From Candidatus Rokuibacteriota bacterium (GTDB lineage: Bacteria > JAUVQV01 > DATDCY01): DNA of 64,000 bases. The notes under the pieces were generated by a model. It saw only the letters and a program-made list of their open reading frames with translations, did no database searches and had not been told where the DNA came from. The stretch is taken from NCBI GenBank assembly GCA_031406795.1, contig JANOHV010000007.1:48574-112573 (forward strand). The letters run 5' to 3'. Positions 1 to 19,982 of the stretch are shown piece after piece (the stretch's first letter is position 1; every line of letters starts with the position of its first letter). Both the position numbers and the translations under genes were made by a program.

Positions 1-27
1 CATAGGGGCTCCTAACAGTTGAAGTGT

Positions 28-1064: not shown

Positions 1065-1065
1065 C

Positions 1066-2043: not shown

Positions 2044-2059
2044 GGTGTGTCTTTTGATG

Positions 2060-2104: not shown

Positions 2105-2189
2105 CATCGCGTCAAGCCAAAAACATTGATGCCATAATATAGACAAATGTCTCATGGAGAAAGATGACGGCAGCTGGATACTCTAGCTA

Positions 2190-2242
2190 GATGAGACCCC
2201 GTTGATAGGCTGGCGAAGCCAGCCTATCAACGGGGTCTCATC
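2190..2242. repeat. Second perfect palindrome: 25-bp arms around a GAA loop (GATGAGACCCCGTTGATAGGCTGGC-GAA-GCCAGCCTATCAACGGGGTCTCATC). Shares the TTGATAsGCTkGC-GAA core with the first.
   Basis: Seen directly. The arms are related to but distinct from those of the 2060-2104 palindrome. Confidence 0.9.
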
Positions 2243-2444
2243 ATGTCAAGCCTAACCCGGCGCGTCCTGCATTTTCAACGGCAGCCTGGTTGGCGTCAGC
2301 CGGCTATGCCGGTGGCGCAGCATCCCTTGGCTTTTTCCTGAGCGGCAGGAACGCGAGGATGATTTCTCTCCGCGCGCGGACCTTACGTCCAACCCTGTCA
2401 AGAAGCCCGAGGCTGACGAGAGCGTTCACATCCCGTCGGCAAGA

Positions 2445-2579
2445 TCACCCAAAGATTAGCGAGATGAGCTGATCCTTGGTGATTTTTCTCTGGTCGGCAA
2501 TGTCGCCGAGCATCGCCGAGAGTGTTCCCACGCGGATCGGGTCATGATTCGGCACCGTGACATGGTGTTCAGGCGCTGA
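2445..2579 (-). pseudogene. HicA-like toxin remnant (C-terminal half only, no start codon, catalytic N-terminal half absent)
   Basis: Minus-strand frame reads ...HHVTVPNHDPIRVGTLSAMLGDIADQRK..., matching the HicA C-terminal pattern TVP-H...GTL..IL. It overlaps the 3' end of the HicB-like gene; there is no upstream ORF for the His-containing N-terminal half. Confidence 0.35.
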
Positions 2580-2775
2580 TCACTTCCTCGCGTACGAAGT
2601 GCAGACGGATAATCCGCGGCTCCTGCCCGGGTTCGAAGTGGCAGTGCACGGCATCACGAACATGGGTATGGAGTTGCTCGACGGAGTCCGCCTCGGTGAA
2701 TATGGATACTCCGAGAGCTCGCGCCTCATAGCCGCCCTCGGAGGATTCCGACACCATGAAAATCAGTTCGTTCAT
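2569..2775 (-). CDS. HicB-like / UPF0150-family antitoxin-like small protein (68 aa)
   Basis: Sequence LIFMVSESSEGGYEARALGVSIFTEADSVEQLHTHVRDAVHCHF resembles the HicB N-terminal domain (..EDGGYVVSVPDLPGCHTQGDTLEEALENAKEAI..). Its start overlaps the hsdS stop. Confidence 0.45.
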   Translation of the reverse strand: MNELIFMVSESSEGGYEARALGVSIFTEADSVEQLHTHVRDAVHCHFEPGQEPRIIRLHFVREEVISA

Positions 2776-4379
2776 CGTCTCCTCCCAATCAATTCGTCAA
2801 TCTTTGCCACAATCCGGTGCTGTTCGGCGATGGGAGGAATTGGGATCCGTACCAACTTTAGATTGGAGGCGCTGATACCCCAATTCCCAACCGTCGTCGC
2901 ACAATAAGTTTCTATGTCTTCACGTACTACTGCTGATTTAGCAAACCATCGAACAAGTTCCGGAAGGACGATCCTTGTAGACAAACGGAGGCGGATAAGC
3001 TTATCCGGAAAGATCTGACGTAAACCCAGGTAGCCGGTGTACAGGGAAAGGCGACCTACAAAGTCTCGATTACCATTGAAACGGCATGCCAGGAGATCAC
3101 CGGGTTTTAGGCTGAATTGCTCCTGGAGTTTGCGAGTTATCCCGCCAATGAGTTTATATTCTTCTTCAGCAACAATTCCGTCTCTTCTGATTGTCCCAGC
3201 GCTAATACGAAGGATCGGAACTCCATTTGTTGCCTCGTCTGGCTTCTTGGAATATCCGTTTCGGGAGTCGTCAAGGAGTATGTCCTCAATCCTGACCCAT
3301 TCCCAACCAGACGGAAGCTGAAGAGGTTGAATCTTCCCACCTTCTTGGGTCACCGATTCCTGACGTATCGCTCGGTCTGCTGATTTTAGTTGATCGTTCG
3401 CTGAACGTGTCCGCCCCAAAAGGGTAGCGACAGGCTCGTTCCTTGAATCCTGGGGGACGAGTTTGCCGCGAACGGCTAGGTTTAGGATGGTTTTGCGGAG
3501 TTGGTGGATGTGTTCGGGACGGGTGGTGAGGCGCGGGAGGTAGTTGAAGTAGAAGCGGGCGCTCTCCTCGAAGGTGGTGGGGGCGCCGGGTGTCTGGGTG
3601 GCGTCGCCGTTGTTCAGGCCGTGGAGAGTTGCCGCCACCAGGCGGTCGCGGCGCTTCTCGCGTTTGGTTTGCGCCGCCTCCAGTTCGTCGCACAGCGCCA
3701 TCAGCTCGTCCACCTTCGCCACGATTCGGCGTTGCTCGGCGAGGGGCGGAAGTGGAATTGCCGCGGCTCTTAGAAGTTTGAAATGGCGACCATACCCACG
3801 GCTGTCCAGTGGCAACCATCTGAGCGCGAGATAGTAAAATTCTGTCAGCACGCCAAGGGGATGAAGGAGTTTCACGCCATCTGCCCCGACTACGAAGTCA
3901 AAGTCGATTAGTTTTGTTTCTCGTGTATGGTCACCAAACAGGATGATCGGCGCATCAACATGGATGACTTTATGCTGATCGTTGCAATAACCCCTGATGA
4001 AAACCTTGCCTTGGTCGACTACAGGGAAAGCACCCGATTCCAAAACATCCTTTGTCTGAACCTTTTTCCCCATGTCCGAGATCAGATATGCTGGAAAAGT
4101 GGCAGGAACCCATTCCCATGTCGGCGGAATCTCGAACGGCATCTCTGATCTTTCAATCGACTCGAACGGCTCTTGGCTTCTGATCTCCCCGGCCTTCACC
4201 AGCTTCGTTTTCTCAGCCTGAATTTGTTTCAGCAACTCCCCCGCCGGCTCATCCTTCGGATCCTGCTCCACGAGCTTTCCGCGCACGGCCAGATCCAGGA
4301 TGAATCTTCGGAGGCGCGGGACGGCCTCGGGGGTGTCGATGAGACGATCGAAATGTTCGAGGAGGCGGGCGGGACTCAT
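2772..4379 (-). CDS. hsdS: Type I restriction-modification specificity subunit HsdS (two target-recognition domains)
   Basis: Long ORF 2772..4793; the real start is ATG 4379 (MSPARLLEHFDRL...), which overlaps the hsdM stop as ATGA. Shows the conserved HsdS repeat LAEQRRIVAKVDELMALCDELE / IAEQHRIVAKIDELIGRRR after each TRD. Confidence 0.85.
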   Translation of the reverse strand: MSPARLLEHFDRLIDTPEAVPRLRRFILDLAVRGKLVEQDPKDEPAGELLKQIQAEKTKLVKAGEIRSQEPFESIERSEMPFEIPPTWEWVPATFPAYLISDMGKKVQTKDVLESGAFPVVDQGKVFIRGYCNDQHKVIHVDAPIILFGDHTRETKLIDFDFVVGADGVKLLHPLGVLTEFYYLALRWLPLDSRGYGRHFKLLRAAAIPLPPLAEQRRIVAKVDELMALCDELEAAQTKREKRRDRLVAATLHGLNNGDATQTPGAPTTFEESARFYFNYLPRLTTRPEHIHQLRKTILNLAVRGKLVPQDSRNEPVATLLGRTRSANDQLKSADRAIRQESVTQEGGKIQPLQLPSGWEWVRIEDILLDDSRNGYSKKPDEATNGVPILRISAGTIRRDGIVAEEEYKLIGGITRKLQEQFSLKPGDLLACRFNGNRDFVGRLSLYTGYLGLRQIFPDKLIRLRLSTRIVLPELVRWFAKSAVVREDIETYCATTVGNWGISASNLKLVRIPIPPIAEQHRIVAKIDELIGRRR

Positions 4380-5815
4380 CGCAGCAGCGCCTGCTCCAGA
4401 ATGGCCTTGAGTTTGTCGCGGAGCTTTGCCGTCGCGGCCTCGCTCTCGTTGAGTTTGGCGAGCAGCTCGGCGGGATCGCCGTGGTCTTCCTCGACGGTGT
4501 GGGGATTCTTGATGTCGAGGTTGTAGCCGCGGGCCTTGATGTCGTCGATCGTGACCTTCCAGGCGATCTCGTTCTTCTCGCGCTTGTCCCACCAGTCGAT
4601 GCAGGGCTTGAAGTGCTCGAAGCGGATCGGCCTGGTCATGGAGTAGGCCTTCTGGCCGTCGGGGACGCGGTGCTCGTAGAACCAGACGGTTTGGGTCGGC
4701 GTCCCCTTCTCGAAGAAGAGCAGGTTGGTGCCGATGGAGGCGTAGGGCTTGAAGACGCTGTTGGGCAGCCGGACGATGGTGTGGAGGTTGCACTCCTCCA
4801 GCAGGTGCTCCTTGAGGCGCGTCTTGACCCCCTCGCCGAAGAGCGTGCCGTCGGGCAAGACCACGGCGGCGCGGCCCTGGGACTTGAGCAGGCGCACGAT
4901 GAGGGCGAGGAAGAGGTCGGCGGTCTCGCGCGTCTGGAACTGCTACGGGAAGTTGCTCTCGATGCCGTCTTCCTCGCGGCCACCGAAGGGGGGATTGGTC
5001 AGGACGATGTCCACCCGGTCGGACTGGGTGTAGCTGGTGTAGGGGCGCGCCAGGGTGTTGTCGTGACGGACGAAGGAGGGGTCCTCGATGCCGTGGAGCA
5101 GCATGTTCGTCACGCAGAGCATGTGCGGGAGCTGTTTCTTCTCGGTGGCGCGCAGGGCTCCCTGCATCTTACGTTCGGCGGCCGGGGTCTTCACGTAGCG
5201 CTCGCGCATGTGGCGGATGGCGCAGGTGAGGAAGCCGCCGGTGCCGCATGCGGGATCGTAGAGGATCTCGCCGGGCTTCGGGTCGATGCGGTCGGCCATG
5301 AAGGCGGTGACGGCGCGCGGGGTGTAGTACTCGCCCGCGTTGCCGGCGCTCTGGAGGTCGGTGAGGACCTGTTCGTAGATGTCGCCGAAGTGCTGACGCT
5401 CGCTGAGGTTGTTGAAGTCGATGCCGTTGATCTTGTTGATCACCTGGCGCATCAGCTGACCGGACTTCATGCAGTTGTAGGCGTCCTCGAAGACGTCGCG
5501 CACGACGCGGCGCCGGCCGTCCCGGGCGACGCCGGAGAGTTCCTTAAGGGTCGGGAAGAGCTTGTCGTTGATGAAGGCGAGCAGCGCATCGCCGGTCAGC
5601 CCCTCGGGGTCGGCGGCCCAGGCGCGCCACTGGAGCTTGGCCGGGATCGGCGAGCGGTAGCCCTTCTGGAGCTGCTCCAGCTCCTGGTCCTGGTCGTCGA
5701 TGATCTTGAGGAAGAACATCCAGCAGAGCTGGGAGATGCGCTGGGCGTCGCCGTCGACGCCGACGTCCTGGCGAATGATGTCCTGGATGGATTTGACGGT
5801 GGTGCGGACGGACAA
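4376..5815 (-). pseudogene. hsdM: Type I R-M N6-adenine methyltransferase HsdM, interrupted by one in-frame amber codon (TAG at 4943-4945)
   Basis: ORFs 4943..5815 (HsdM N-terminal domain, ..TNPPFGGREEDGIESNFP*) and 4376..4897 (..GRAAVVLPDGTLFGEG..) are in the same frame. Reading through the TAG gives FP*QFQTRETADLFLALIVRLLKSQGRAAVVLPDG, a colinear HsdM. TTG start with AAGGAAGAG SD. Confidence 0.7.
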
Positions 5816-6532: not shown

Positions 6533-8997
6533 CTATGCAACGGCGTAGAGGGCGGATTGGAGTTCGTGGACGGCCCGCTCGAAGCCCTCTCGGCCGCCGA
6601 AGCGCCGCAGGAGCTGGACCGGGGTGCCCATGGTATCGAAAGGGGCGATCTTGAGGATCTGCGGGTCGTCGAGATCGGCAATCCCCTGGTCCTGGTACTT
6701 CTGCAGCAGCGCTTCGAGCACGGCGCGGGCCTGTTCGCCGTAGCGGGTGAAAACGTCGCGCTTGCGGACGCTGTCGACGCGCTCGCGCCGGGTGAGCGGC
6801 GGCTGGTCGAAGGCGACGTGGCAGATCAGGTCGAAGGCATCGAGGTCTTTCCCCACCTCGTCCGCGAGCGGCTCCAGCAAGAGACCCTCGTTTTCCAACT
6901 CCTCGATGACCGCTTCCTTGCGCTCGGCGGTGTTCCAGCGCCCGAGGAAGTCATCGAGGCTGGCGAAGTGCTTGCGCAGCGTGCGCTTGGAGTAGTCGCG
7001 GAGGCTCTCGGTGACGAGCTTCCCGTTTTCGTCGAGGTATTCGATGCGCTCGGTAAGGATGCGGACCTCGTGGCCGCGGATGAAGTACTTGGACGGGTGC
7101 TCGTTGGCGTTGCCGGGAGGAAGGCTGATATCAGGAGGCCAGGGCTGGCCGTCGACGATTACTTCGTCGTTGCCCGGTTCGGGCGGAATAGGGTCTTCAT
7201 CATCGACAGGCGGCGGCACATCGTCCGGTGGACTGACCGGATCCCCATCCCCCGGCTCGTAGATCTGCACCGGCTCGCCGTCGAAGTCCGGATCGGCAAA
7301 GTGGTTCGTGGCCTTGCGGAAATCGATCAGCGTGAAATAGAACTTCTTCGTGTCCTCATGCACGCGGGTGCCGCGCCCGACGATCTGCTTGAACTCGGTC
7401 ATGGAGCCGACTTCACGATCGAGCACGATCAGCCGGCAGGTCTGGGCGTCGACGCCGGTGGAGAGCAGCCGCGAGGTGGTGACGATCACCGGAAATCTCG
7501 CTTCAGGGTCGATGAAATTGCCGAGCGCGCCTGGCCCTCGGGGTCGTCGCCCGTGATGCGCATGACGTAGCGCGGGTTCTGGAGCGTCAGGTCCTGGTTT
7601 TCGTTGATCAGCGCCTGACGCATCCGGGCGGCGTGTTCGGTGTCCACGCAGAAGATGATGGTCTTCTGATAGCGATCGCCGCTCTCCCTCAGGAACTCGG
7701 TCACCCGGCGGGCGACGCGCTTCGTGCGCTCGTCGATCACGAGATTGCGGTCGAAATCCTTCTGGTTATAAATCCGGTCTTCAATCTCGTAGCCGTACGT
7801 GTCGGTCTCGCCGCGGGTGGGGCGATAGCCCTCCACATCGACGTCGAAGTGGACCTTCACCGCCTTGTAGGGCGCGAGGAAGCCGTCGCGGATCCCTTCT
7901 CTGAGCGAGTAGGTGTATACCGGTTCGCCGAAGTAGTGGATGTTGGAGACGTATTCGGTCTCTTTCGGCGTGGCGGTGAGACCGATCTGCGTGGCGGAGG
8001 AGAAATGGTCGAGGATCTCGCGCCAAGCGGAATCCGCTGCCGCACTGCCGCGGTGGCATTCGTCGATGACAATGAGGTCGAAGAAATCGGGAGAAAGTTC
8101 GCGGAAGAGCTTCTGGCGCTCCTCCGGGCCGGTGATTGCCTGGTAGAGGGCGAGGTAGATCTCGTAGGAGGTGTCGATGCGCCGCTGCTTGCGATCAACG
8201 GCGGTGGGGAGCCGGACCTCGCTGCCGTCCTCGCGTTCGATGGTCTTCGAGGATGTGCTGAGCTTGGCCATCGCGGCGCCGAAGGGACGGAAGTCGTTGA
8301 CCATCGTCTGGTCGATCAGAACGTTGCGGTCGGCGAGGTAGAGAATGCGCTTTCTGCGGCCGGCCTTCCAGAGGCGCCAGATGATCTGAAAGGCCGTGTA
8401 CGTCTTTCCGGTTCCGGTGGCCATGACGAGGAGGAGGCGATTCTGTCCCGCTGCGATGGCCTCGATGGCCTTGTTGATCGCGATGCGCTGGTAGTATCGC
8501 GGCTCCGTGCCTCCCGGATCCTCGTAGTAATTCTGGAGGACGACCTCCTCCTGGGCTGGTGCGAGGCTCTTCCAAGTTCGATATCTGGACCAAAGCCTTT
8601 CGGGGGAGGGAAAGGCGTCGAGGGAAAGGTTCGTCTCGGTCTGCTCGCCGAGGCCGGTCCGGTCGTGGAAGACAAAGCCGCTGCCGTTGGATGTAAAGAC
8701 GAACGGGATATCGAGGGTAGTCGCGTATTCCAGAGCCTGCTGCATCCCGGCGCCGACGGCGTTGTTGCCGTCCTTGGCCTCGATCAGTGCGAGGGGGATG
8801 TTCGGCTTGTGGTAGAGGATGTAATCGGCCCGTTTGGCCTTGCCCCGGGTGACCAGCTTGCCGCGGACGATGATCCGCCCTTTGGTGAACCCGACCTCCT
8901 CGCGAATCTGGGAATGGACATCCCATCCCGCTTTGACAAGAGCGGGAGTGATGAACTTGGTGCAGATGTCCCGCTCGCTGAGGTCCTTTACGGCCAT
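6533..8997 (-). pseudogene. hsdR: Type I restriction endonuclease subunit HsdR, frameshifted near 7486-7490
   Basis: N-part ORF 7486..8997 has helicase motifs ([19 protein letters not shown]) and ends ..[10 protein letters not shown]-part ORF 6533..7489 (GTG start) continues IVTTSRLLSTGVDAQTC..QIVGRGTR in a different frame (8997-7489 is not a multiple of 3). No slippery site or homopolymer at the junction. Confidence 0.7.
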
Positions 8998-9811: not shown

Positions 9812-10146
9812 CGGGCCGCTTCCTCGGGCAAGGGGTGAACGGCTGTTGTCCCGGGGATTAGACGGCAGCGGGCCGCAGCTGTCAACGGCGCTTGATGGAC
9901 GGCCGACCGGGCTCACCCGCCATCGCCTGGTCAGGTGAGGGGCGCTTCACCTGCTGCGTCAGCATGAAAACGACCGTTGCGGCGCGGTCCCGCGGATGCA
10001 CTGCCGTATTTTCATGGGCCTGGCGGTACGCCGCCCGCGGAACGGGCTCGCGTTCTCCATTGCCGTGCTGCAACCGGAGCCGCCGCCCCGGCGTAACGGA
10101 TGCCGTCAGGGTGTCGTGGTCAACCACCAACGGAGGAGTGCCAGGT

Positions 10147-12906
10147 ATGAAGGCTCGTCGAGGTACGCTTCGCACACTCGTCGCTCTCGCGCTGTTCTGT
10201 TCGCTGCTCGTCGGCGGAGGCGGGCTCGCCCGCGCCGACCTGCAGAGTCCGTGGGTCACCGTGCTCTCCGGAAGGGTCCAGGCCGTGGTCACGACCGCGA
10301 GCGCCGCCCCGGGAGCCCCCCGGGTCGTGTTCGCCGGCACCCCCACTGCTACGCTCAGGAGCGAGGACGGCGGGCTGACCTGGACGCAGGTGCTCGCAAC
10401 GTACACGAGTGCCTTGGCCGCCGACCCGGTCAGCGGCGGCGTCGTCTATGCCGCGACGGCGTCGGGCCTGCAGAAAACCGCCGACTACGGCCTGACCTGG
10501 ACGAACCTCAACCCATCGATCAGGACCAGCATCGCCGTGAGCCCCTTCGACGGCCAGGTGCTCTTCGGCGGCAGCTATCGGAGCACCGACGGCGGCGCGA
10601 CGTGGACGGTGATGTCTGGATTGACGTCAGGGTCCTCGACCCCCCATCTCAGTGCATCGCGGGACCCGGCCAACCCCGGGGACCTGCTCTACTTCACCGG
10701 CAGCGTCCACCGCAGCCTGGACAACGGCCTGAGTTGGACGCCGGTGAACGTCGGGTTCAACGAGGACTCGGCCGCGCTGGACCCGACGGACCCCCGCTAC
10801 TATTACGTCGGCGCCTGCGGCGGCACCATCTTCCGCGCGTTCCCCGGCGGGAGTTCGAGCTCTTCGAATATCGGCGGGCACGTCCACGGGATCGTCGTCG
10901 ACCCGGGGTCCCACAACCGGGTGTACGCGGCGCGCGACTCCGGCGGCGTCATGGTCAGCCAGGACTTCGGCGCGACCTGGGCCTCGTCAGGAACCGGCGC
11001 ACCCTCCGGCGTTGTCGAGAACAGGATGTTCTTCGACGCCGACTCCGGGATCATCTACCTGCCGACCTACGGAGGCCTCTCCGTCAAGAACAGCCGCTGC
11101 TCCGACCTCGACCACGACGGCGCCTCCGCCGAGGGCGGGCTCTGCGGCGCGGTCGACTGCAACGATGCCGACGCGGCGCGCAGCCCGTTCAAGAAGGAGA
11201 ACTGTTTCGACGGGATCGACAACAACTGCACGGAGGCGATAGATTTCGCGGACACCTGGTGCGCCACGATGTGCGTGGACGGCGACGGCGACGGGCACTT
11301 CCCGCTGCTCTGCGGCGGCGACGACACCAAGGACGCCGACGCGACGATCTACCCCGGCGCCCCCGAGCTCTGCGACGACAAGGACAACGACGTCGACTTC
11401 GTGGTGGACGAGGGGTGCACGCGCTACACGTACTATCGCGACTCCGACCTCGACGGCTTCGGCAACCCCGATTACACGACCCTTTCCTCCTTCACCACGC
11501 CGCCTGTCGGCTTTCTCGCAGACAATCGGGACTGCAACGACTGGGATCTGAACACGCACCCGGGGGCCGTGGACTTCTGCGGCGATGCGGCCGACAACGA
11601 CTGCGACGGAACGCCGGACAACGGCTGTCCGACGTTCACGTACTTTGCCGACATGGACGGCGACAGTTTCGGCGATCAGAGTCGGGTGGTCGTGACGACC
11701 GTTACCGATCCCCTCGCCGTCGGGGCGAGCCTGAACAATCTCGACTGCAACGACGCGGCGTACTGGGTCAACCCCGACGCCCTCGAGGAGTGCGACTGGG
11801 TCGACAACAACTGCGACGGGGTCGTCGACGAAGTCTGCGGCCACGCGGCCATGCTCTGGGGCGACAACGCCAAGGGACAGGTCGGCGACGGCACCACGAC
11901 GGACCGCAAGTCCCCGGCGTCGCTGGCCGGGCTCTCCCCGCTCGCGGTTGCCGCCGGCAATCAGCACACGCTGGTCGTCAACAACGACGGCACGGTCTGG
12001 GCCTGGGGAGTCAACGGGAGCGGTCAGCTCGGCGACGGGACGACGACGACGAGGAAAAGCCCGATCAAGGTTTCAGGGATCTCCGGCGTCGCCGCGGTCT
12101 CGGCCGGGCTGAACCACAGCCTGGCGCTCAAGGCCGACGGCACGGTCTGGGCCTGGGGCGCCAACGGCAACGGTCAGCTCGGCGACGGCACGACGACCAC
12201 GAGAAAGACGCCCGTCCAGGTCTTCGGCCTCGCTGGCGTCATCGCCGTGTCGGCGGGCAACTACCACAACCTGGCGCTCAAGAGCGACCAGACGGTCTGG
12301 GCCTGGGGCAGCAACGGCGACGGCCGGCTTGGCGACGGCACGGCGACCACGCGGAAGACGCCGATCCAGGTAATCGACACTCTTGCGGGCTTCGAATACG
12401 CAATCGCGGTCGCTGCCGGCGGGGACTTCAGCCTGGCAATCGATCAGTACGGGTCCGTCTGGTCCTGGGGTAGCAACTGCGCCGGGCAGCTCGGTGACGG
12501 CTCCACGGTCACCAGGAAGAGTCCAGTCATGGTACCCGGCCTCTCCAACGTCGCATGGGGCATTGCCGCGGGCGCGAGCCACGGCCTGGCCATGACTGGC
12601 GAAGGCGTGATGGCGTGGGGGTCGAACGCGAAGGGGCAACTCGGCGACGGCACGACGACGACGCGCAAGACGCCCGTGTTGCTGCCGGAGAGCTACAACA
12701 TCTGGGCGATCGCCGCAGGCGGCAGCCACTCCCTGGCGCTGGGTTGGGTCGGCGATGTCATTGAACTGCAGGCCTGGGGGAGCAACGGTGACGGGCAACT
12801 CGGCGACGGCACCACGACGAACCGGAAGACGCCGGTCGTGGTGCCGGGTCAGAGCGACGCGCTCTTCTTCGCGGCCGGCGGGGCGCACAGCGTTACGTTG
12901 AGATAG
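10147..12906 (+). CDS. Large secreted multidomain protein: signal peptide, BNR/Asp-box (SxDxGxTW) beta-propeller, MopE-like Cys-rich putative metal-binding repeats (C.D.D....E.CDG.DNDCDG), then a 7x RCC1-repeat beta-propeller
   Basis: ORF 9892..12906, start set at ATG 10147 (MKARRGTLRTLVALALFCSLLVGGGGLARA signal peptide). BNR motifs SEDGGLTWTQ, TADYGLTWTN, STDGGATWTV, SLDNGLSWTP, SQDFGATWAS. Repeated CNDxDxxxxPxxxExCxDxxDNDCDG units. RCC1 repeats G(S/A)NxxGQLGDGTTTxRKxP x7. Confidence 0.8.
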   Translation: MKARRGTLRTLVALALFCSLLVGGGGLARADLQSPWVTVLSGRVQAVVTTASAAPGAPRVVFAGTPTATLRSEDGGLTWTQVLATYTSALAADPVSGGVVYAATASGLQKTADYGLTWTNLNPSIRTSIAVSPFDGQVLFGGSYRSTDGGATWTVMSGLTSGSSTPHLSASRDPANPGDLLYFTGSVHRSLDNGLSWTPVNVGFNEDSAALDPTDPRYYYVGACGGTIFRAFPGGSSSSSNIGGHVHGIVVDPGSHNRVYAARDSGGVMVSQDFGATWASSGTGAPSGVVENRMFFDADSGIIYLPTYGGLSVKNSRCSDLDHDGASAEGGLCGAVDCNDADAARSPFKKENCFDGIDNNCTEAIDFADTWCATMCVDGDGDGHFPLLCGGDDTKDADATIYPGAPELCDDKDNDVDFVVDEGCTRYTYYRDSDLDGFGNPDYTTLSSFTTPPVGFLADNRDCNDWDLNTHPGAVDFCGDAADNDCDGTPDNGCPTFTYFADMDGDSFGDQSRVVVTTVTDPLAVGASLNNLDCNDAAYWVNPDALEECDWVDNNCDGVVDEVCGHAAMLWGDNAKGQVGDGTTTDRKSPASLAGLSPLAVAAGNQHTLVVNNDGTVWAWGVNGSGQLGDGTTTTRKSPIKVSGISGVAAVSAGLNHSLALKADGTVWAWGANGNGQLGDGTTTTRKTPVQVFGLAGVIAVSAGNYHNLALKSDQTVWAWGSNGDGRLGDGTATTRKTPIQVIDTLAGFEYAIAVAAGGDFSLAIDQYGSVWSWGSNCAGQLGDGSTVTRKSPVMVPGLSNVAWGIAAGASHGLAMTGEGVMAWGSNAKGQLGDGTTTTRKTPVLLPESYNIWAIAAGGSHSLALGWVGDVIELQAWGSNGDGQLGDGTTTNRKTPVVVPGQSDALFFAAGGAHSVTLR

Positions 12907-14934: not shown

Positions 14935-17289
14935 ATGCCGCCCAGGAAGAAAGAGCCGCTCGGTGTCGCGACCCTCGAGGACATCGGCCGGCTGATCCTG
15001 CACTCGCACGACCTCGACGAGACGCTGCGCAACGTCGCGGACCTGGTCGCCCGGCGCGCCGGCACCGATGTCTGTTCGATCTACCTGATCGGCGAAGACG
15101 GCGAGACGCTCGTGCTGCGCGCCAGCCACGGGCTGGCGAAGAAGGCGATCGGGAAGGTCAGCATGAAGTCCACCGAGGGGCTGACCGGCCTGGTCGTGCG
15201 CGAGCGGCGCATCGTCGCGGTGCGCGAGCCGCAGCGGCACCCACTCTACCGCTACTTCAAGGAGACGGGCGAGGAGCGCTTTCACAGTTTTTTCGGCGTC
15301 CCGCTGCTCGACCGCGGCGTCCCGGTTGGCGTGCTTGTGCTGCAGACGCGCGAGCCGCGGGATTTCACCGCCGTCGAGACGAGCGCGCTCTCCTCAATCG
15401 CGTACCAGGTGGCCGCGATCGTCGTGAACGCCCGCCTGCTGGACACCGTGCGGCGCACCGAGGACGCCGCGCGCCACTACGCGGGGGAGCTCGAGCGGCT
15501 GCGCCGCGGCGGCGGGGTGGCGCCGGATGCGGGCCGTGGCCCGGGGCGCGAGTTGCTGCTGCGCGGCACCGGGACGAGCCCCGGCTTCGTCATCGGGACG
15601 GCGAACCTGATGGACGAGCAGCTCTCCTCGTCCGAGGCGGCCGTCGTCACGCCGGCCGACCCCACGGGCGAATCGGCCCGTCTGGACAAGGCGCTTGAGG
15701 AGACGCGCATCCAGACAATCCTGCTCGAGCAGCAGGTCGCCGGCCGTCTCGCCGAATCCGACGCCGGTATTTTCCACACGCACCTGATGGTGCTCGAGGA
15801 CCGCGGTTTCCTCGAAAAACTGCAGCGTGAAGTCGCCCGCGGCCACGGCGCGGCGACCGCGGTCAAGGTCGCGGTCGCCGAGTATCTCGAAGCCTTCAGC
15901 CGGATGGAGGACCCCTATCTGCGCGAGCGGGCGGCCGACATCCGCGACATCGGCCGGCGCGTCATCGCGCACCTGGCCGGGCGCGGCACCCCCGACCCGG
16001 CGCTCGCGGCCGAGGGCATTCTCGTCGCCGCCGAGATGCTGCCCTCGGACATGGCGGCCCTCGACCCCGCGCGCGTCCGCGGCATCATCACCGAGCGCGG
16101 CGAGCCGACCTCCCACGCCGCGATCATGGCGCGCTCGCTGGGCATCCCCGCGCTGATGGGGGTCAAGGGCGCGCTGCGTGCCATCAACCAGGGGGACCGG
16201 CTGATTCTCGACGCCAACTCGGGGTGCGTCTACATCAACCCCGGCGAGGTTGTCGCCGCCGAATACCGGCGCCTCGGGGAGGAGCACCGCCGCGAGAGCG
16301 ACCGCCTCGACGGGATGCGCGACCTGCCGGCGGTCAGCCGGGACGGCGTTCGTGTGACGCTTCGTGCGAACATCGGTCTGGTCAGCGACCTGGAAGTCGC
16401 CCTGCGCAACGGCGCCGACGGCGTCGGTCTCTACCGGACGGAATTCCCCTACATGGTGCGCGAGGGCTTTCCCAGCCGCACCGACCAGTATCAGCTCTAC
16501 CGGCGCGTCGTCGAGGGCTTCCGCGGTGCGCCGGTCACGATCCGCACGCTGGATGTCGGGGGCGACAAGCACCTGCCCTACGCGATGGCGGCGCACGAGG
16601 AGAACCCCTTCATGGGGCTGCGCTCGGTGCGGTTCACGCTCGAGAACCCCGAGATCTTCCGCACGCAGATCGAGGCGATCCTGATGGCCGGCGCGCACGG
16701 GCCGGTGCGGATCCTTTTTCCGCTGATCACCAGCCTCGACGAGGTGCGCCGCTGCAAGGCGGTCGTGGCGACCGCGCGCGAGAGTCTGACGCGCGAGGGG
16801 GTGACGTTCGGGCACGAGGTTCCGCTCGGCATCATGATCGAGGTGCCCGCGGCGGTCTGGCAGGCGCCGGCGCTCGCCCTCGAAGTGGACTTTTTTTCGG
16901 TGGGGACGAACGACCTCGTCCAGTACCTGCTGGCAGCCGACCGGACGAACCCTCTGGTCAGCCGCTACTACGACCACCTGCATCCGGCCGTGCTCGCGGC
17001 GCTGCGCCACGTGGCCGAGGCGGCGCAACGCGAAAACTGCGGTCTTTCGATCTGCGGCGAAATGGCCACCGACCCGCGGGCGTTCCTGCTGCTCTTCGGG
17101 CTCGGCTACCGCGAATTCTCGCTGCCGGCGCCCTTCATTCCCCGGATGAAACAGCTGCTCGCGGGGATTTCTTCAGCCGCGGCCGCCGAGACCGCCGCCG
17201 AGTGCCTGCGCCAGGGCGACGCGTCGCGTATCAAGGCGCTGCTCGACGAGGCGCTGCTGAAGGTCCGGCCGGACCAACGAGGATCGTGA
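14935..17289 (+). CDS. ptsP: Phosphoenolpyruvate-protein phosphotransferase PtsP (EI-Ntr: N-terminal GAF domain + PEP-utilizing enzyme I)
   Basis: 784 aa. GAF region (LGVATLEDIGRLILHSHDLDETL...). EI motifs GGRTSHAAIMARSLGIPALMG (active His), ENPFMGLRSVRF and IMIEVPAA. Confidence 0.9.
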   Translation: MPPRKKEPLGVATLEDIGRLILHSHDLDETLRNVADLVARRAGTDVCSIYLIGEDGETLVLRASHGLAKKAIGKVSMKSTEGLTGLVVRERRIVAVREPQRHPLYRYFKETGEERFHSFFGVPLLDRGVPVGVLVLQTREPRDFTAVETSALSSIAYQVAAIVVNARLLDTVRRTEDAARHYAGELERLRRGGGVAPDAGRGPGRELLLRGTGTSPGFVIGTANLMDEQLSSSEAAVVTPADPTGESARLDKALEETRIQTILLEQQVAGRLAESDAGIFHTHLMVLEDRGFLEKLQREVARGHGAATAVKVAVAEYLEAFSRMEDPYLRERAADIRDIGRRVIAHLAGRGTPDPALAAEGILVAAEMLPSDMAALDPARVRGIITERGEPTSHAAIMARSLGIPALMGVKGALRAINQGDRLILDANSGCVYINPGEVVAAEYRRLGEEHRRESDRLDGMRDLPAVSRDGVRVTLRANIGLVSDLEVALRNGADGVGLYRTEFPYMVREGFPSRTDQYQLYRRVVEGFRGAPVTIRTLDVGGDKHLPYAMAAHEENPFMGLRSVRFTLENPEIFRTQIEAILMAGAHGPVRILFPLITSLDEVRRCKAVVATARESLTREGVTFGHEVPLGIMIEVPAAVWQAPALALEVDFFSVGTNDLVQYLLAADRTNPLVSRYYDHLHPAVLAALRHVAEAAQRENCGLSICGEMATDPRAFLLLFGLGYREFSLPAPFIPRMKQLLAGISSAAAAETAAECLRQGDASRIKALLDEALLKVRPDQRGS

Positions 17290-17410
17290 TCCGACTCGCG
17301 CGGGCCGGCGCACCTCTGACACGCACGGGAGGGGGTGAACCCCTCCCCTACACACGGGATGCTTCTTCCATTGCGGGGCGGAATATCACCCCCCACGGAA
17401 TTCGATCTCT

Positions 17411-17488
17411 GTCGTAGGGGCGGGATTCATTCCCGCCTGAGTAAGGAAATGACCGTCTGTGGTAGTGGCGGGATTCATTCCCGCCTGA
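17411..17488. repeat. Two tandem copies of a REP-like hairpin element, GTCGTAGGGGCGGGATTCATTCCCGCCTGA (17411-17440) and GTGGCGGGATTCATTCCCGCCTGA (17465-17488)
   Basis: Seen directly in the convergent ptsP / cytochrome intergenic region. Related copies occur at 39815-39844 and 41224-41253. Confidence 0.7.
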
Positions 17489-17499
17489 ATCAGATGAAA

Positions 17500-17531
17500 G
17501 CCGGCGGGGAAGGACATCCTCCCCCGCCGGC
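17500..17531. terminator. GC-rich hairpin GCCGGCGGGGA-N10-TCCCCCGCCGGC between convergent ptsP and the cytochrome gene; probable terminator
   Basis: Perfect 11-bp stem seen directly. A U-rich tract follows on the minus strand (CUUUCAUCU). Confidence 0.5.
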
Positions 17532-17539
17532 GATTCCCT

Positions 17540-19225
17540 CTACTTCGCCGGAGCCGCCGCCGGTGCGGCCGCGGGCGTGGCGGCCGGCGCCGTTGCCGCG
17601 GGCGGGTTCAGGGCGTCGTTGATGATCTTGATGCCCTTCTGCGACTCATCGATCGACTTCGCGATCGACTCGCGCGCCAGCTCCGGGTTGTGGTAGCCGT
17701 CCGAGTTCTCGGCGGTCCAGTACTCCCAGAGGATGTGCGCCCGCAGGTGCTGGTCCTGCGCCTGCTTGATCACGTCGGCGGCAAGGCCGGCCTTCTTGCC
17801 CTCGACGATCTTGTCGATCAGGGCCGAAAGCCAGAACTCTGCCTTGCGCAGCTTGCCGCGGGTGTAGGCCTTCACCGAGTCGATCGCGTACTTTGCGGTC
17901 TCCTCGGTGTATTCCTTGTGGCATTTCAGGCAGGTCTCCTTGAGCTGGTAGCGCGGCGAGACGGCGAAGTGCGAGGTGTACTCCTTGCCGCTCTTCGGGT
18001 CCTTGCGCTTCGGCGTGTGGCAGTCGTCGCAGGAGACGCCGCCTTTGGCGTGCTTGGAGTTGTAGAAGCTCTCGGCCTCCGGGTGCTGGGCCTTCCAGAG
18101 CAGGCCGCCCGTGAGCGTGTGCTTGAAGTCGCCGAACGCGATCTGGTTCACGTAGTGGTCGTAGAGTCCGAGAACGTCCTTGTAGGGGAAGTGGTTGGTG
18201 CGCGCGTCGTCGAACTTCACCGGCTGCCCGGTCTTCAGGTCGGTGCCGGGGTTGCAGTTGTACTCGACGTGGCACTGCCCGCACAGCAGCCGCGAGTCGT
18301 ACTTCTCGAGCAGGGCGATCTTGCGCGTGAACCCGCGCACCCCCATGTCGATCACCTCGATCTTCGTGCGCTTCTCGTCCTTGTGCCAGAGCGTGTCGGC
18401 CTCCGGGCGGGTCAGCGCCTGGATCAGCCCGTCGCGCACGATCCGGGGCTTCGCGGCGTGGGGGTCGTGGCACATGAAGCAGTTCAGGGCGTGCTCGATC
18501 GTGCGGGCCACGTCGACCACGTTCGAGGCGCGCGAGAACTTGGCGCCCTTGGCGGCCGGGTCGCCGAGGTAGGCCCAGTCGAGGATCTGGTCCTGGGACT
18601 TGCACTGCATGCAGGTCGCGTTCGCGGCGGCGGCGGTCTGGGGCATCCAGGCCTTCTGCTCGTTGGTCTCCGGGTGCGTGTCGACCAGGTACTCCCAGGT
18701 CGTCTTGCCGGTCTTCTCGGTGACGTAGTGCCAGCCGTTCTTCGGCTGGAAGCGTCCGCCGAAGGCGCGGTCGACGGCGAACTGGTCGACGACCATCCAG
18801 GCGTGGCTGCGCGTCAGGTTGTGCTCTTTTGTGAAGCCGTGCCCCATCATCAACTTGTCCCAGAAGGGGTTCGGCGAGCGACCCGTCAGCTGGCTCTTCT
18901 CGTCGCGCGCGGGGCGGTGGTAGGACATCTCGAGGAAGCTCTCGTACTGCGCCTTGTGGCAGGAGCCGCAGACTTCCGGGCCCATCCTGGTGACCGGGCG
19001 GGTCTTCTCGTCGGCGAGGTGCTTGTCGATCCCGTCGTGGCACTTCTCGCAGCCGACCTTGGTGTGCTTGCCGCCGGCGTGGAGTTTTTCGATGGTGTCG
19101 TGACAACCGTAGCAGTCCGCGATCTTGAAGCCCGGGCCGGCCTTGGCCGCCCCGGCGTCGGTGGCGCTGAGCGCAATCAGCGCCGCGGCAGCGACGAACC
19201 AGGCAACAGCAGGTTTCCGCGTCAT
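17540..19225 (-). CDS. Secreted octaheme c-type cytochrome of the ONR/NrfA-like nitrite-reductase family (3 CXXCH + CXXCK + 4 CXXCH) with a Pro/Ala-rich C-terminal tail
   Basis: ORF 17540..19252, trimmed to MTRKPAVAWFVAAAALIALSA (ATG 19225, GGGGGGAG SD). Haem motifs CYGCH, CEKCH, CGSCH, CMQCK, CFMCH, CGQCH, CDDCH, CLKCH in the same order as octaheme nitrite reductase (TvNiR-type: three extra N-terminal haems, then the Lys-ligated catalytic haem, then four). Tail NPPAATAPAATPAAAPAAAPAK. Confidence 0.85.
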   Translation of the reverse strand: MTRKPAVAWFVAAAALIALSATDAGAAKAGPGFKIADCYGCHDTIEKLHAGGKHTKVGCEKCHDGIDKHLADEKTRPVTRMGPEVCGSCHKAQYESFLEMSYHRPARDEKSQLTGRSPNPFWDKLMMGHGFTKEHNLTRSHAWMVVDQFAVDRAFGGRFQPKNGWHYVTEKTGKTTWEYLVDTHPETNEQKAWMPQTAAAANATCMQCKSQDQILDWAYLGDPAAKGAKFSRASNVVDVARTIEHALNCFMCHDPHAAKPRIVRDGLIQALTRPEADTLWHKDEKRTKIEVIDMGVRGFTRKIALLEKYDSRLLCGQCHVEYNCNPGTDLKTGQPVKFDDARTNHFPYKDVLGLYDHYVNQIAFGDFKHTLTGGLLWKAQHPEAESFYNSKHAKGGVSCDDCHTPKRKDPKSGKEYTSHFAVSPRYQLKETCLKCHKEYTEETAKYAIDSVKAYTRGKLRKAEFWLSALIDKIVEGKKAGLAADVIKQAQDQHLRAHILWEYWTAENSDGYHNPELARESIAKSIDESQKGIKIINDALNPPAATAPAATPAAAPAAAPAK

Positions 19226-19473
19226 GGTAGCTCCCCCCCGTTGGATGTCCAACCGCCCGACGGACGGTTGCCCGACCAGCGAAACCTCACGAAACCCAGA
19301 GTGGCGGATCCCTCATCAGGCACCTCACGCGAGCAGTGGTGCAATGAGCCGGTGTTCACAAGCAATGTATTCCCGAACGGGGGCAGCGGTCAAGCAACGC
19401 TTGCAGCGAGCAGCACGGTCCGGTATGAGCCACGAGACCCGAAAGACAAGACCTGGGAACAAACCTGCCTCAA

Positions 19474-19500
19474 CTGATCCGCGCGTTACGCGCGGATCAG
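19474..19500. promoter_or_regulatory. Perfect palindrome CTGATCCGCGCG-TTA-CGCGCGGATCAG in the divergent promoter region between the octaheme cytochrome and the FKBP gene
   Basis: Seen directly. A TACTATAAT -10-like box follows at 19511-19519, upstream of the FKBP gene (SD GAGGAGGAG). Confidence 0.5.
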
Positions 19501-19553
19501 GGTCATTTGTACTATAATCGGCGCGGCACGATCAACTTCGAGGAGGAGTACCG

Positions 19554-19982
19554 ATGGCACAGGTGAAGAAGGGGGACCGGGTGAAATTCAATTACTCGCT
19601 CACCCTCAAGGACGGGAAGGTTTTCGAATCGAACATGGGGCAGGCGCCGCTGGAGATCGCCGTCGGCAAGGGCAAGGCGATCAAGGGGCTGGAGAACGGA
19701 CTCATCGGCATGAGCCCCGGCCAGACCAAGACCGTGGTCGTCAAACCGGCGGACGGCTACGGAGCCAAGGACCCGGCGTTCGTGTGGACCGTGCCGCTCG
19801 GCGAACTGCCGGCCGGGACGGCGGTCGCCCTCGAGAGCGAAGTCGGCTTCGCTCGCGCGGACGGGTCGCGCGTCGAGGGCCGGATCGCGAAGATCGACGG
19901 CGACCAGGTGACGGTCGACGGCAATCACCCGCTGGCGGGGCGCAATCTCACCTTCGAAATCAAGCTGGCCTCCATCGGCTGA
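19554..19982 (+). CDS. FKBP-type peptidyl-prolyl cis-trans isomerase (SlyD/FkpB-like)
   Basis: 142 aa, MAQVKKGDRVKFNYSLTLKDGKVFESN...LEIAVGKGKAIKGLENGLIGMSPGQTKTVVVKPADGYG; classic FKBP fold with an IF-domain insert. Confidence 0.85.
   Translation: MAQVKKGDRVKFNYSLTLKDGKVFESNMGQAPLEIAVGKGKAIKGLENGLIGMSPGQTKTVVVKPADGYGAKDPAFVWTVPLGELPAGTAVALESEVGFARADGSRVEGRIAKIDGDQVTVDGNHPLAGRNLTFEIKLASIG

What the first reader, a model, noticed from the sequence alone, without database searches (positions are those of the whole stretch)
17540..19225. Octaheme CXXCK cytochrome c (ONR/TvNiR-type nitrite-reductase family) with an unusual Pro/Ala-rich C-terminal tail
The haem-motif order (3 CXXCH, CXXCK, 4 CXXCH) matches octaheme nitrite reductases rather than pentaheme NrfA or all-CXXCH HAO/Otr. 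No nrfH/cymA-like partner gene is adjacent: the neighbours are ptsP, convergent, and an FKBP gene, divergent. The ~22-aa P/A/T tail is atypical for soluble periplasmic ONRs and could be a linker or anchoring extension. The substrate (nitrite, hydroxylamine or sulfite) is open.
Basis: partly seen in the sequence, partly recalled or inferred. Interest (0 to 1): 0.5.

Follow-up and report, generated by a model that had tools for sequence, protein, structure and literature searches.

The report
Ordinary octaheme nitrite reductase gene
This gene encodes a standard eight-haem periplasmic enzyme that reduces nitrite to ammonium; it belongs to a large, structurally solved family, and its Pro/Ala-rich tail is a longer version of a short tail that most family members carry.

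Summary
Window 17540-19225 (minus strand) is a 561-aa ORF with a Shine-Dalgarno site, a signal peptide and eight haem motifs in the order 3x CXXCH, CXXCK, 4x CXXCH. It is a clear member of the octaheme nitrite reductase (ONR) family. It matches the Trichlorobacter ammonificans ONR structure (8rv0, E=6e-162, 53% identity) and TvNiR (E=5e-158, 49.5%). Every residue I recall as catalytic or Ca2+-binding in TvNiR is conserved: Arg131, Lys188, Glu302, Tyr303, Cys305, Lys358, Gln360 and His361.

The family is large: more than 1600 homologues and 591 loci in species-representative genomes. No NrfH/CymA-type partner lies anywhere in the 64 kb, but most family loci (about 65 of 80) also lack an adjacent multihaem gene.

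The tail is not atypical. Among 79 ONR ORFs the C-terminal tail is Ala/Pro/Thr/Lys-rich and 3-30 aa long, and 73 end in Lys. The seven sampled members of this gene's sub-clade all carry "NPP...PAK"-type tails of 14-23 aa. The tail has no hydrophobic or sorting motif and is predicted disordered.

Nitrite to ammonium is the strongly predicted chemistry. The physiological role and the electron donor remain open. This is a new member of a known kind, of low interest.

The parts
17540..19225 (-). ONR coding sequence: 561 codons plus the TAG stop at 17540-17542
   Evidence: ORF list and translation. GC3 is 0.95. PDB phmmer gives 8rv0 at E=6e-162 and 2zo5 at E=5e-158.
19231..19237 (-). Shine-Dalgarno-like GGGGGAG, 5 nt upstream of the ATG
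   Evidence: Read directly from the sequence. GGAGG-like motifs occupy the same position in relatives.
19148..19225 (-). Sec-type signal peptide, about aa 1-26 (MTRKPAVAWFVAAAALIALSATDAGA | AKAG)
   Evidence: Read by eye: a basic n-region, a 16-residue hydrophobic core and an A-x-A site, with no lipobox Cys and no twin-Arg. Residue 1 of the mature TvNiR chain maps to about query residue 25. No signal-peptide predictor was available.
18767..18769 (-). Arg153, equivalent to the catalytic Arg131 of TvNiR
   Evidence: Residue mapping. Invariant in the 33-sequence alignment.
18599..18613 (-). CMQCK (aa 205-209), the binding motif of the catalytic haem 4. Lys209 equals TvNiR Lys188, the proximal ligand.
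18254..18265 (-). Glu321-Tyr322-Asn323-Cys324, equal to TvNiR Glu302 (Ca2+ ligand), Tyr303 (catalytic) and Cys305 (Tyr-Cys thioether partner)
18083..18094 (-). Lys378-Ala-Gln380-His381, equal to TvNiR Lys358 and Gln360 (Ca2+ site) and His361 (catalytic)
   Evidence: This is the His between haem motifs 6 and 7 that PMC10716430 uses as an ONR criterion.
17543..17608 (-). C-terminal Pro/Ala/Thr tail, aa 540-561 (NPPAATAPAATPAAAPAAAPAK), ending in Lys
   Evidence: A 12-bp tandem repeat of 3.8 copies lies at 17546-17590. The AF2 model shows coil, with block-mean pLDDT of 45 and 30 from residue 551. Compared with homologues.
17500..17531 (-). Terminator-like GC-rich hairpin (14 pairs), 9 nt after the stop codon, followed by TTTCATCTGA
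   Evidence: The 5' arm is conserved in relative L002.
19364..19393 (-). Sigma-70-like promoter TTGACC-N18-TACATT, about 140 nt upstream of the ATG
   Evidence: The TTGAC and TA[CG]ATT elements are conserved upstream of ONR in L002, L085 and L086.
14935..17289 (+). GAF-domain PtsP (enzyme I of the PTS) gene, convergent. A syntenic neighbour, not a demonstrated partner.
   Evidence: Pfam. The same adjacency occurs in L001, L002, L085 and L086.
19554..19982 (+). FKBP-type peptidyl-prolyl isomerase gene, divergent. A syntenic neighbour.
   Evidence: Pfam. Conserved upstream of ONR in all seven clade loci examined, L001, L002, L083-L086 and the locus of P0002.

Best explanation
The gene encodes a Sec-exported, soluble periplasmic octaheme cytochrome c nitrite reductase of the ONR/TvNiR/TaNiR type.

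Proposed mechanism. Seven bis-His haems relay electrons to haem 4, whose proximal ligand is the CXXCK lysine (Lys209). Nitrite binds on the distal side and is reduced by six electrons to ammonium. Arg153, Tyr322 (probably thioether-linked to Cys324) and His381 serve as the proton-delivery triad, and a Ca2+ ion is held by Glu321, Tyr322, Lys378 and Gln380.

Gene organisation. The gene is a monocistronic unit with its own promoter and terminator. It sits at a fixed chromosomal position (FKBP <-> ONR, with ptsP usually downstream) in an uncultured high-GC lineage. It has no dedicated quinol-dehydrogenase gene nearby, so electrons must come from a donor encoded elsewhere.

The tail. The 22-aa Pro/Ala tail is a disordered, lineage-specific lengthening of the short Ala/Lys-rich, Lys-terminated tail common to the family. 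The lengthening probably arose by slippage of a 12-bp repeat. It is not an anchor.

Shown versus inferred. Shown: the motif order, residue conservation, family membership, gene context and the distribution of tails. Inferred: the catalytic activity, the Tyr-Cys bond, oligomeric assembly, the electron donor and the physiological role (respiratory DNRA versus assimilation or detoxification).
For: Family membership.
- The haem motif order is HHHKHHHH.
- phmmer against the PDB gives T. ammonificans ONR 8rv0 at E=6e-162 (53.3% identity over 484 aa) and TvNiR at E=5e-158 (49.5% over 503 aa). Pentaheme NrfA matches only at 1e-28 or weaker, and only over the C-terminal half.
- All eight functional TvNiR residues map to identical residues. 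All are invariant in a 33-sequence alignment.
- 23 TvNiR histidines are conserved, which include all seven CXXCH histidines and leave enough others to supply the distal haem ligands.
- The AF2 model matches ONR structures at TM 0.74-0.84, against 0.44-0.66 for NrfA and 0.17-0.20 for MccA.
- An NJ tree places the protein inside the ONR clade, far from NrfA.
- It meets the ONR criteria of PMC10716430: 3x CXXCH, 1x CXXCK, 4x CXXCH, a His between sites 6 and 7, and Ca-dependent type.

In vivo function of relatives.
- TaNiR is a proven ammonifying nitrite reductase in vivo (PMC12142623; PMC11972089).

Gene organisation.
- Promoter, terminator and synteny are documented.

The tail.
- Tail statistics are, the repeat, and the disorder prediction.
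Against: No biochemical data exist for this protein or for any member of its sub-clade. The AF2 model is only of moderate quality (mean pLDDT 66.5), as expected without haems. The electron donor is unknown. Nothing in the window points to a nitrate or nitrite pathway: there is no nap, nar, nrfH or Rieske/cytochrome b gene. TvNiR-type enzymes also turn over hydroxylamine and sulfite (recalled; sulfite-bound structures are listed), so the in vivo substrate cannot be proven from sequence.
Confidence: 0.88

Rival explanations
1. The enzyme has the same chemistry, but its physiological role is assimilatory nitrite reduction or detoxification of nitrite, NO or hydroxylamine, rather than energy-conserving DNRA.
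For: In Nitrospira moscoviensis the ONR is highly expressed when nitrite is the only nitrogen source and is assigned to assimilation (PMC6606698). In the window the gene is monocistronic. It has no nap or nar cluster, unlike T. lovleyi, where the ONR gene directly follows nap, and no quinol dehydrogenase. The conserved neighbour is a GAF-domain PtsP, a type I recall as linked to nitrogen regulation.
Against: The PtsP gene is convergent, so it is not co-transcribed. Adjacency alone does not show a functional link. Only 64 kb of the genome is visible, so nap, nar and donor genes may lie elsewhere. TaNiR shows that an ONR can be the sole respiratory nitrite reductase.
Confidence: 0.4
2. The Pro/Ala tail with its terminal Lys is a functional tether or anchor. 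It might attach the enzyme to the cell envelope or serve as a docking arm for a redox partner.
For: The terminal Lys is retained in 73 of 79 family members across several phyla. Within the sub-clade the tail ends are conserved ([NSA]PP...PAK) while the length varies. This is the pattern of a spacer with a functional tip.
Against: The tail has no hydrophobic segment, lipobox or known sorting motif. TvNiR and TaNiR were crystallised, so I take them to be soluble enzymes. Tail length ranges from 3 to 30 aa without any obvious link to gene context. The tail DNA is a 12-bp tandem repeat, typical of slippage-driven low-complexity sequence.
Confidence: 0.07
3. The protein is a non-catalytic electron-transfer multihaem cytochrome, or an enzyme for a different substrate such as an MccA-like sulfite reductase, an HAO-like hydroxylamine oxidase or an Otr-like tetrathionate reductase.
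For: ONR, HAO, Otr and MccA are all octaheme proteins with related haem packing (recalled). Sulfite-bound ONR structures exist (3f29 and 3ttb, listed).
Against: The complete ONR active site and Ca2+ site are conserved. The CXXCK motif is present, unlike in HAO and Otr. The fold match to MccA is TM 0.17-0.20. Sequence identity to two structurally characterised ONRs is 50-53% over the full length.
Confidence: 0.03

Closest known systems
Octaheme nitrite reductase TaNiR of Trichlorobacter ammonificans (PDB 8rv0, 8rvm, 8rxu)
   Same: It has the same eight-haem motif order and is 53.3% identical over 484 aligned residues (E=6e-162). It is the best structural match (TM 0.75/0.84). The HVEYNC and QHPEAE active-site segments are identical.
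   Different: TaNiR has only 5 residues after the last helix (...NDAI + 5), against 22 here. In T. ammonificans the ONR works with a Nap nitrate reductase, and in the related T. lovleyi the ONR gene directly follows nap. Here the gene is isolated between FKBP and ptsP. In the NJ tree the window protein falls in a different sub-clade.
TvNiR of Thioalkalivibrio nitratireducens and TvPaR of Tv. paradoxus, the hexameric eight-haem nitrite reductases (PDB 2ot4, 2zo5, 3sxq and others)
   Same: It is 49.5% identical over 503 residues. Arg131, Lys188, Glu302, Tyr303, Cys305, Lys358, Gln360 and His361 are all conserved. The fold match is TM 0.74-0.82.
   Different: TvNiR has a short C-terminus (...NDAIDAQVAS + 1). 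It comes from a haloalkaliphilic gammaproteobacterium. The window protein carries several small insertions and deletions relative to it. Whether the window protein also forms a hexamer is unknown.
[quoted passage not shown]
   Same: The C-terminal five-haem catalytic module is homologous (Pfam Cytochrom_C552, E=1e-53). NrfA shares the CXXCK catalytic haem and the Ca2+ site and catalyses the same reaction.
   Different: The window protein has three extra N-terminal haems. It scores 100.6 bits against the NrfA equivalog cut-off of 595. It has the Cys that forms the Tyr-Cys link in ONRs, a feature PMC12285233 lists as distinguishing ONR from NrfA. It has no nrfH or nrfBCD partner genes.
ONR of Nitrospira moscoviensis and N. 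japonica
   Same: It belongs to the same ONR family. Nitrospirota ONRs are 64-71% identical to the window protein and carry the same kind of Ala/Pro/Lys tail; for example, the ONR of a MAG labelled N. japonica ends MAPKPAAAAPAAPAK.
   Different: In N. moscoviensis the ONR is co-expressed with two upstream Rieske/cytochrome b genes. No such genes are found in the window.

Membership tests
Octaheme nitrite reductase (ONR / TvNiR family) | Eight haem c motifs in the order 3x CXXCH, 1x CXXCK, 4x CXXCH | tested here: met
   Motifs start at aa 38, 59, 86, 205 (CMQCK), 249, 315, 399 and 432. The criterion is stated in PMC10716430.
Octaheme nitrite reductase (ONR / TvNiR family) | The CXXCK lysine aligns with the proximal ligand of the catalytic haem 4 (TvNiR Lys188) | tested here: met
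   Lys209 aligns with Lys188 in the phmmer alignment. The column is invariant in 33 homologues. Actual ligation cannot be shown from sequence.
Octaheme nitrite reductase (ONR / TvNiR family) | Catalytic Arg/Tyr/His triad (TvNiR Arg131, Tyr303, His361), including a His between haem sites 6 and 7 | tested here: met
   Arg153, Tyr322 and His381 are identical and invariant. His381 lies between motif 6 (aa 315) and motif 7 (aa 399).
Octaheme nitrite reductase (ONR / TvNiR family) | A Cys two residues after the catalytic Tyr, able to form the Tyr-Cys thioether (TvNiR Cys305) | tested here: met
   The segment HVEYNC is identical, with Cys324 invariant. Formation of the bond itself is not testable with these tools.
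Octaheme nitrite reductase (ONR / TvNiR family) | Ca2+ site near the active site (TvNiR Glu302, Tyr303, Lys358, Gln360) | tested here: met
   Glu321, Tyr322, Lys378 and Gln380 are identical and invariant. The assignment of these residues as ligands is from my own knowledge of TvNiR and NrfA.
Octaheme nitrite reductase (ONR / TvNiR family) | Full-length sequence and fold similarity to solved ONRs, and placement in the ONR clade apart from NrfA | tested here: met
   E=6e-162 and 5e-158 over about 500 residues. TM is 0.74-0.84 to ONRs against 0.44-0.66 to NrfA. The NJ tree was rooted on two NrfA sequences; it is a simple distance tree without bootstrap support.
Octaheme nitrite reductase (ONR / TvNiR family) | Periplasmic location through an N-terminal Sec signal peptide | tested here: met
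   Read by eye: MTRKP, then a 16-residue hydrophobic core, then AGA|A. The mature TvNiR N-terminus maps to about residue 25. No predictor was run.
Octaheme nitrite reductase (ONR / TvNiR family) | Homohexameric assembly | not testable with these tools
   Only a monomer model was made. Hexamer formation is described for TvNiR.
Octaheme nitrite reductase (ONR / TvNiR family) | Nitrite to ammonium activity | not testable with these tools
   This needs purified protein. It is inferred here from the identical active site.
Pentaheme NrfA (ammonia-forming cytochrome c552) | Five haem motifs and a score above the NCBIfam NrfA equivalog cut-off | tested here: not met
   The protein has eight motifs. 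NF008339 scores 100.6 bits against a cut-off of 595, and TIGR03152 scores 86.2 against 692.5.
Pentaheme NrfA (ammonia-forming cytochrome c552) | An operon partner gene, nrfH or nrfBCD | tested here: not met
   No other ORF with two or more CXXCH motifs occurs in the 64 kb window. Pfam annotation of 40 window ORFs found none.
HAO / Otr / MccA octaheme enzymes | All-CXXCH motif set (HAO, Otr) or an MccA-type fold | tested here: not met
   A CXXCK motif is present. The MccA fold match is TM 0.17-0.20 with E above 0.05, and no HAO or Otr chain appears among the 50 matches listed.

The most novel reading that the evidence does not exclude
The near-universal C-terminal Lys of ONRs sits at the tip of a variable-length Ala/Pro spacer, which is 22 aa long in this lineage. 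It might be a functional tether. One possibility is covalent linkage to peptidoglycan by an L,D-transpeptidase, as I recall for the C-terminal Lys of Braun's lipoprotein. Another is a docking arm for the unknown electron donor. If so, many 'soluble' ONRs would in fact be positioned within the periplasm. A second, weaker lead concerns the donor: in one relative (L001) a cupredoxin gene lies directly downstream of ONR, so a blue-copper protein rather than a cytochrome might be the donor in this clade.
Probability: 0.05. Interest if true: 0.55.

Novelty: new member of a known kind. Interest (0 to 1): 0.15.

Why it matters
The finding adds one more ONR gene to a family that already has crystal structures, in vivo evidence and hundreds of genomic members, so its importance is modest. 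It places an apparently complete ammonia-forming nitrite reductase in an uncultured high-GC lineage. The nearest labelled relative of that lineage is a 'Candidatus Methylomirabilia' MAG, and a search of the text and held supplements of the 2023 nrfA/onr survey (PMC10716430) found no mention of Methylomirabilota. This is relevant to predicting nitrogen retention against nitrogen loss in environments where the lineage occurs. The only point of wider curiosity is the family-wide Lys-terminated Ala/Pro tail, which I found described nowhere in the papers I could read.

Tried and rejected
- Exact-sequence look-up of the window ONR and of the 100%-identical EttA found no contig on record, so the source genome could not be retrieved.
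- The T. ammonificans paper (ISME J 2023) is not held, so its statements on the TaNiR donor and oligomer could not be read. A search for the PDB codes 8RV0, 8RVM and 8RXU found nothing relevant.
- The PLoS One 2017 ONR paper does not contain the residue names I searched for. The TvNiR residue roles therefore rest on my own knowledge plus the residue positions reconstructed from the alignment.
- Rfam on 17200-19600 gave only a sub-threshold FinP hit on the terminator hairpin, which I take as chance.
- I tested whether the tail is a by-product of high GC content. Tail length against locus GC gives Spearman rho 0.20, p=0.08, and long Pro/Ala tails also occur at 43-45% GC, so GC alone does not explain them.
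- I considered a cupredoxin remnant in the 250-bp ONR-ptsP spacer. Alignment to L001 shows no homology there. The spacer holds the terminator and two REP-like hairpins.
- I considered an FNR or CRP box upstream. The conserved TGTGAAG...CTCATTGC element does not fit either consensus, so I made no claim.
- Taxonomy from PtsP is ambiguous beyond the close clade. The next relatives are Desulfuromonadales at about 60% identity, while the closest labelled MAG is 'Candidatus Methylomirabilia'.
Full report
**1. The observation**

The minus strand of window 17540-19225 carries a 561-codon ORF. The ATG at 19225 is preceded by GGGGGAG at 19237-19231. An in-frame TTG nine codons upstream (19252) has no such site. 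Third-position GC is 0.95 in a region that is 65-68% GC, so this is the coding frame and the long antisense ORFs are shadow ORFs.

The product has eight haem c motifs: CYGCH (aa 38), CEKCH (59), CGSCH (86), CMQCK (205), CFMCH (249), CGQCH (315), CDDCH (399) and CLKCH (432). It ends in NPPAATAPAATPAAAPAAAPAK. The N-terminus (MTRKP, then a 16-residue hydrophobic stretch, then AGA|AK) reads as a Sec signal peptide with no lipobox. Residue 1 of the mature TvNiR chain maps to about residue 25.

The neighbours are as described. A GAF-domain PtsP gene (14935-17289, +) is convergent and an FKBP gene (19554-19982, +) is divergent.

**2. What it is**

Sequence comparison with solved structures is unambiguous.
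- The octaheme nitrite reductase of Trichlorobacter ammonificans (8rv0) matches at E=6e-162, with 53.3% identity over 484 residues.
- The eight-haem nitrite reductase TvNiR of Thioalkalivibrio nitratireducens matches at E=5e-158, with 49.5% identity over 503 residues.
- Pentaheme NrfA proteins match only at 1e-28 or weaker, and only over the C-terminal half.
- Pfam sees the Cytochrom_C552 module. The NCBIfam NrfA equivalogs score far below their cut-offs, 100.6 against 595.

I reconstructed TvNiR numbering from the alignment. The residues I know as functional in TvNiR map to identical residues here:

| TvNiR residue | Role (from my own knowledge) | Window residue |
|---|---|---|
| Arg131 | catalytic | Arg153 |
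| Lys188 | proximal ligand of catalytic haem 4 | Lys209 |
| Glu302 | Ca2+ ligand | Glu321 |
| Tyr303 | catalytic | Tyr322 |
| Cys305 | Tyr-Cys thioether partner | Cys324 |
| Lys358 | Ca2+ site | Lys378 |
| Gln360 | Ca2+ site | Gln380 |
| His361 | catalytic | His381 |

All of these residues, and all haem-binding Cys, His and Lys, are invariant in an alignment with 32 homologues of 66-94% identity.

The protein meets the ONR criteria used in the 2023 genome survey: 3x CXXCH, 1x CXXCK, 4x CXXCH, a His between sites 6 and 7, and Ca-dependent type (PMC10716430).

Structure and tree agree.
- An AlphaFold model is of moderate confidence (mean pLDDT 66.5), as expected without haems. It matches ONR structures at TM 0.74-0.84, NrfA at 0.44-0.66 and MccA at 0.17-0.20.
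- A neighbour-joining tree rooted on two NrfA sequences places the protein inside the ONR clade. It falls in a sub-clade with its 76-94% identical metagenomic relatives, separate from the two crystallised enzymes.

**3. How common it is**

The family is large. The 5.8-billion-protein database holds more than 1600 homologues at E<=1e-20, and nearly all of the best 120 have the HHHKHHHH pattern. The species-representative genome set holds 591 confirmed loci, mostly in Nitrospirota, Thermodesulfovibrionales, Desulfobacterota and Deferribacterales MAGs. The best match in that genome set is 71-74% identical, so the source species is not represented in it.

**4. The tail**

That is true only in comparison with the crystallised enzymes. 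TvNiR has 8 residues after ...NDAI and TaNiR has 5.

Among 79 complete ONR ORFs the segment after the last helix is Ala/Pro/Thr/Lys-rich. A typical form is MAAKTAAK or MAPKTAAAK. It is 3-30 aa long with a median of 9, and it ends in Lys in 73 cases.

Tails of 12-30 aa recur in several lineages, including genomes of 43-45% GC. Tail length correlates only weakly with GC (rho 0.20, p=0.08).

The seven sampled members of the window's sub-clade (the window plus six relatives) carry [NSA]PP...PAK-type tails of 14-23 aa, one with an extra terminal Pro, and other close relatives outside the tree have similar tails of 12-20 aa. An NCBI MAG relative that is 77.7% identical has a 10-aa version.

The tail DNA is a degenerate 12-bp tandem repeat of 3.8 copies at 17546-17590. 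This fits length change by slippage. The model shows the tail as coil after the last helix, which ends at residue 539; block-mean pLDDT is 59 for residues 541-550, then 45 and 30. The tail has no hydrophobic segment and no known sorting motif.

I read it as a disordered, lineage-specific lengthening of a family-wide short tail, not as an anchor. The conserved terminal Lys is unexplained.

**5. Context and partner**

No other ORF in the 64 kb window has two or more CXXCH motifs. Pfam annotation of 40 window ORFs found no nap, nar, nrf or Rieske/cytochrome b gene.

The gene looks monocistronic.
- A sigma-70-like promoter (TTGACC-N18-TACATT, 19393-19364) has both hexamers conserved in relatives.
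- A 14-bp GC-rich hairpin terminator starts 9 nt after the stop codon.

Seven related loci share the upstream block of response regulator, Metallophos_2 phosphoesterase and FKBP, divergent from ONR. The downstream side varies.
- ptsP follows directly in four loci (the window, L002, L085 and L086).
- A cupredoxin gene lies between ONR and ptsP in L001.
- Other genes follow in L083, L084 and the locus of P0002.
The pattern indicates vertical inheritance at a fixed chromosomal position without a dedicated operon partner.

Across the wider family, being an orphan is the norm. Of 80 loci, 14-15 have a small tetrahaem c3/c7-type cytochrome gene directly downstream. Two of these also have nrfHA directly upstream. 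About 65 have no multihaem gene next to ONR.

The literature shows that different organisms wire ONR differently. T. ammonificans pairs it with Nap, and in T. lovleyi the ONR gene directly follows nap. Nitrospira moscoviensis co-expresses it with a Rieske/cytochrome b complex.

**6. Mechanism and role**

By homology the enzyme accepts electrons through seven bis-His haems and reduces nitrite bound on the distal side of the Lys-ligated haem 4 to ammonium. It is the proximal ligand. The chemistry is strongly predicted; my confidence in the overall explanation is 0.88.

The physiological role cannot be decided from this window. The candidates are:
- respiratory DNRA, as in T. ammonificans and as proposed from proteomics for the homologue in Desulfurivibrio dismutans;
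- assimilation, as proposed for Nitrospira;
- detoxification.

The lack of nap or nar and of a donor gene nearby, and the monocistronic organisation, lean slightly away from a dedicated respiratory module. Only 64 kb of the genome is visible, however.

**7. Source organism**

The window's EttA and PtsP are 100% identical to proteins on an NCBI contig of 122,841 bp. They are 95% and 87% identical to those of MAG GCA_054640855.1, labelled 'Candidatus Methylomirabilia bacterium'. That MAG has the same gene order, including an ONR. Beyond the close clade, PtsP is nearest to Desulfuromonadales at about 60% identity. The window also has a PccH-type cytochrome and a 1198-aa multicopper oxidase, which I recall as reminiscent of Geobacter. 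The phylum label should therefore be treated with care.

**8. Verdict**

This is a well-conserved new member of a known, structurally and physiologically characterised enzyme family. The 'unusual tail' and 'open substrate' points are not supported. Interest is low (0.15). The one loose end of possible wider interest is the Lys-terminated Ala/Pro tail shared by almost the whole family.

Noticed in passing
ONR family loci L003-L082, L001, L002 and window 17543-17608: Almost all ONRs (73 of 79) end in Lys after a short Ala/Pro/Thr/Lys-rich tail, typically MAAKTAAK or MAPKTAAAK. This holds across Nitrospirota, Desulfobacterota, Deferribacterales and other groups. I found no description of it in the papers I could read, and its function is unknown.
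   Followed up: partly
window 17419-17437 and 17467-17485; weaker copies at 39823-39841 and 41232-41250: Two identical REP-like hairpins (GGCGGGAATGAATCCCGCC) lie 48 bp apart in the ONR-ptsP spacer. They are absent from relatives L001 and L002. Two copies with 3 mismatches lie elsewhere in the window. There are 6 matches in all, counting both strands of these palindromic sites, against 0.07 expected by chance.
   Followed up: partly
window 19474-19500: A perfect 12-3-12 palindrome (CTGATCCGCGCG TTA CGCGCGGATCAG) lies in the FKBP/ONR divergent intergenic region. It sits within a stretch that is missing from L001 and L002. It could be an operator, a terminator or a small inserted element.
   Followed up: partly
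window 19330-19393, and upstream of ONR in L002, L085 and L086: Conserved promoter-like TTGAC-N18-TA[CG]ATT is followed by a conserved TGTGAAG-N7-CTCATTGC box. The box fits neither the FNR nor the CRP consensus and may be a regulator site for this clade's ONR.
   Followed up: partly
L001:11715-12140: In an 86%-identical relative, a 141-aa cupredoxin (PF13473) gene lies directly downstream of ONR on the same strand. It is a candidate blue-copper electron donor and is absent from the window. The locus of P0002 has an unannotated 143-aa gene in the same position.
   Followed up: partly
L003, L007, L012, L014, L015, L019, L026, L029, L032, L043, L057, L061, L075, L080, directly downstream of ONR: A small tetrahaem c3/c7-like cytochrome gene (about 120-190 aa stop-to-stop) follows ONR in 14-15 of 80 loci. 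Of the seven whose C-termini were read, four end in ...PYHAKGGK and the other three in similar sequences. It is a likely dedicated redox partner in those lineages. L029 and L032 also have nrfH-nrfA directly upstream of ONR.
   Followed up: partly
window 62791-63255 (+), 50147-53743 (-): A PccH-family monohaem cytochrome c (E=6e-50) and a 1198-aa multicopper oxidase are present. I recall both as reminiscent of Geobacter extracellular electron-transfer components, which is odd for a genome whose nearest labelled relative is 'Candidatus Methylomirabilia'.
   Followed up: no
window 4376-4897 and 4943-5815 (-); 6533-7489 and 7486-8997 (-): A type I restriction-modification locus appears to be split. 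hsdM is divided into two ORFs (N6_Mtase profile positions 3-147 and 172-307). hsdR is divided into a ResIII/helicase ORF and an EcoEI_R_C ORF that overlap by 4 bp. These may be frameshifted or decaying genes. The region at 1-4000 has lower GC (0.54-0.58).
   Followed up: no
window 9892-12906 (+): A 1004-aa protein combines BNR/sortilin-like repeats, four MopE-type putative metal-binding motifs and a seven-repeat RCC1 propeller. This is an unusual architecture next to a LuxR-type response regulator.
   Followed up: no
window 40279-46400: A lower-GC stretch (0.59-0.64) carries a PIN toxin gene, an HTH gene, an RlaP nucleotidyltransferase gene and several short ORFs. It is probably a mobile or defence islet.
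   Followed up: no
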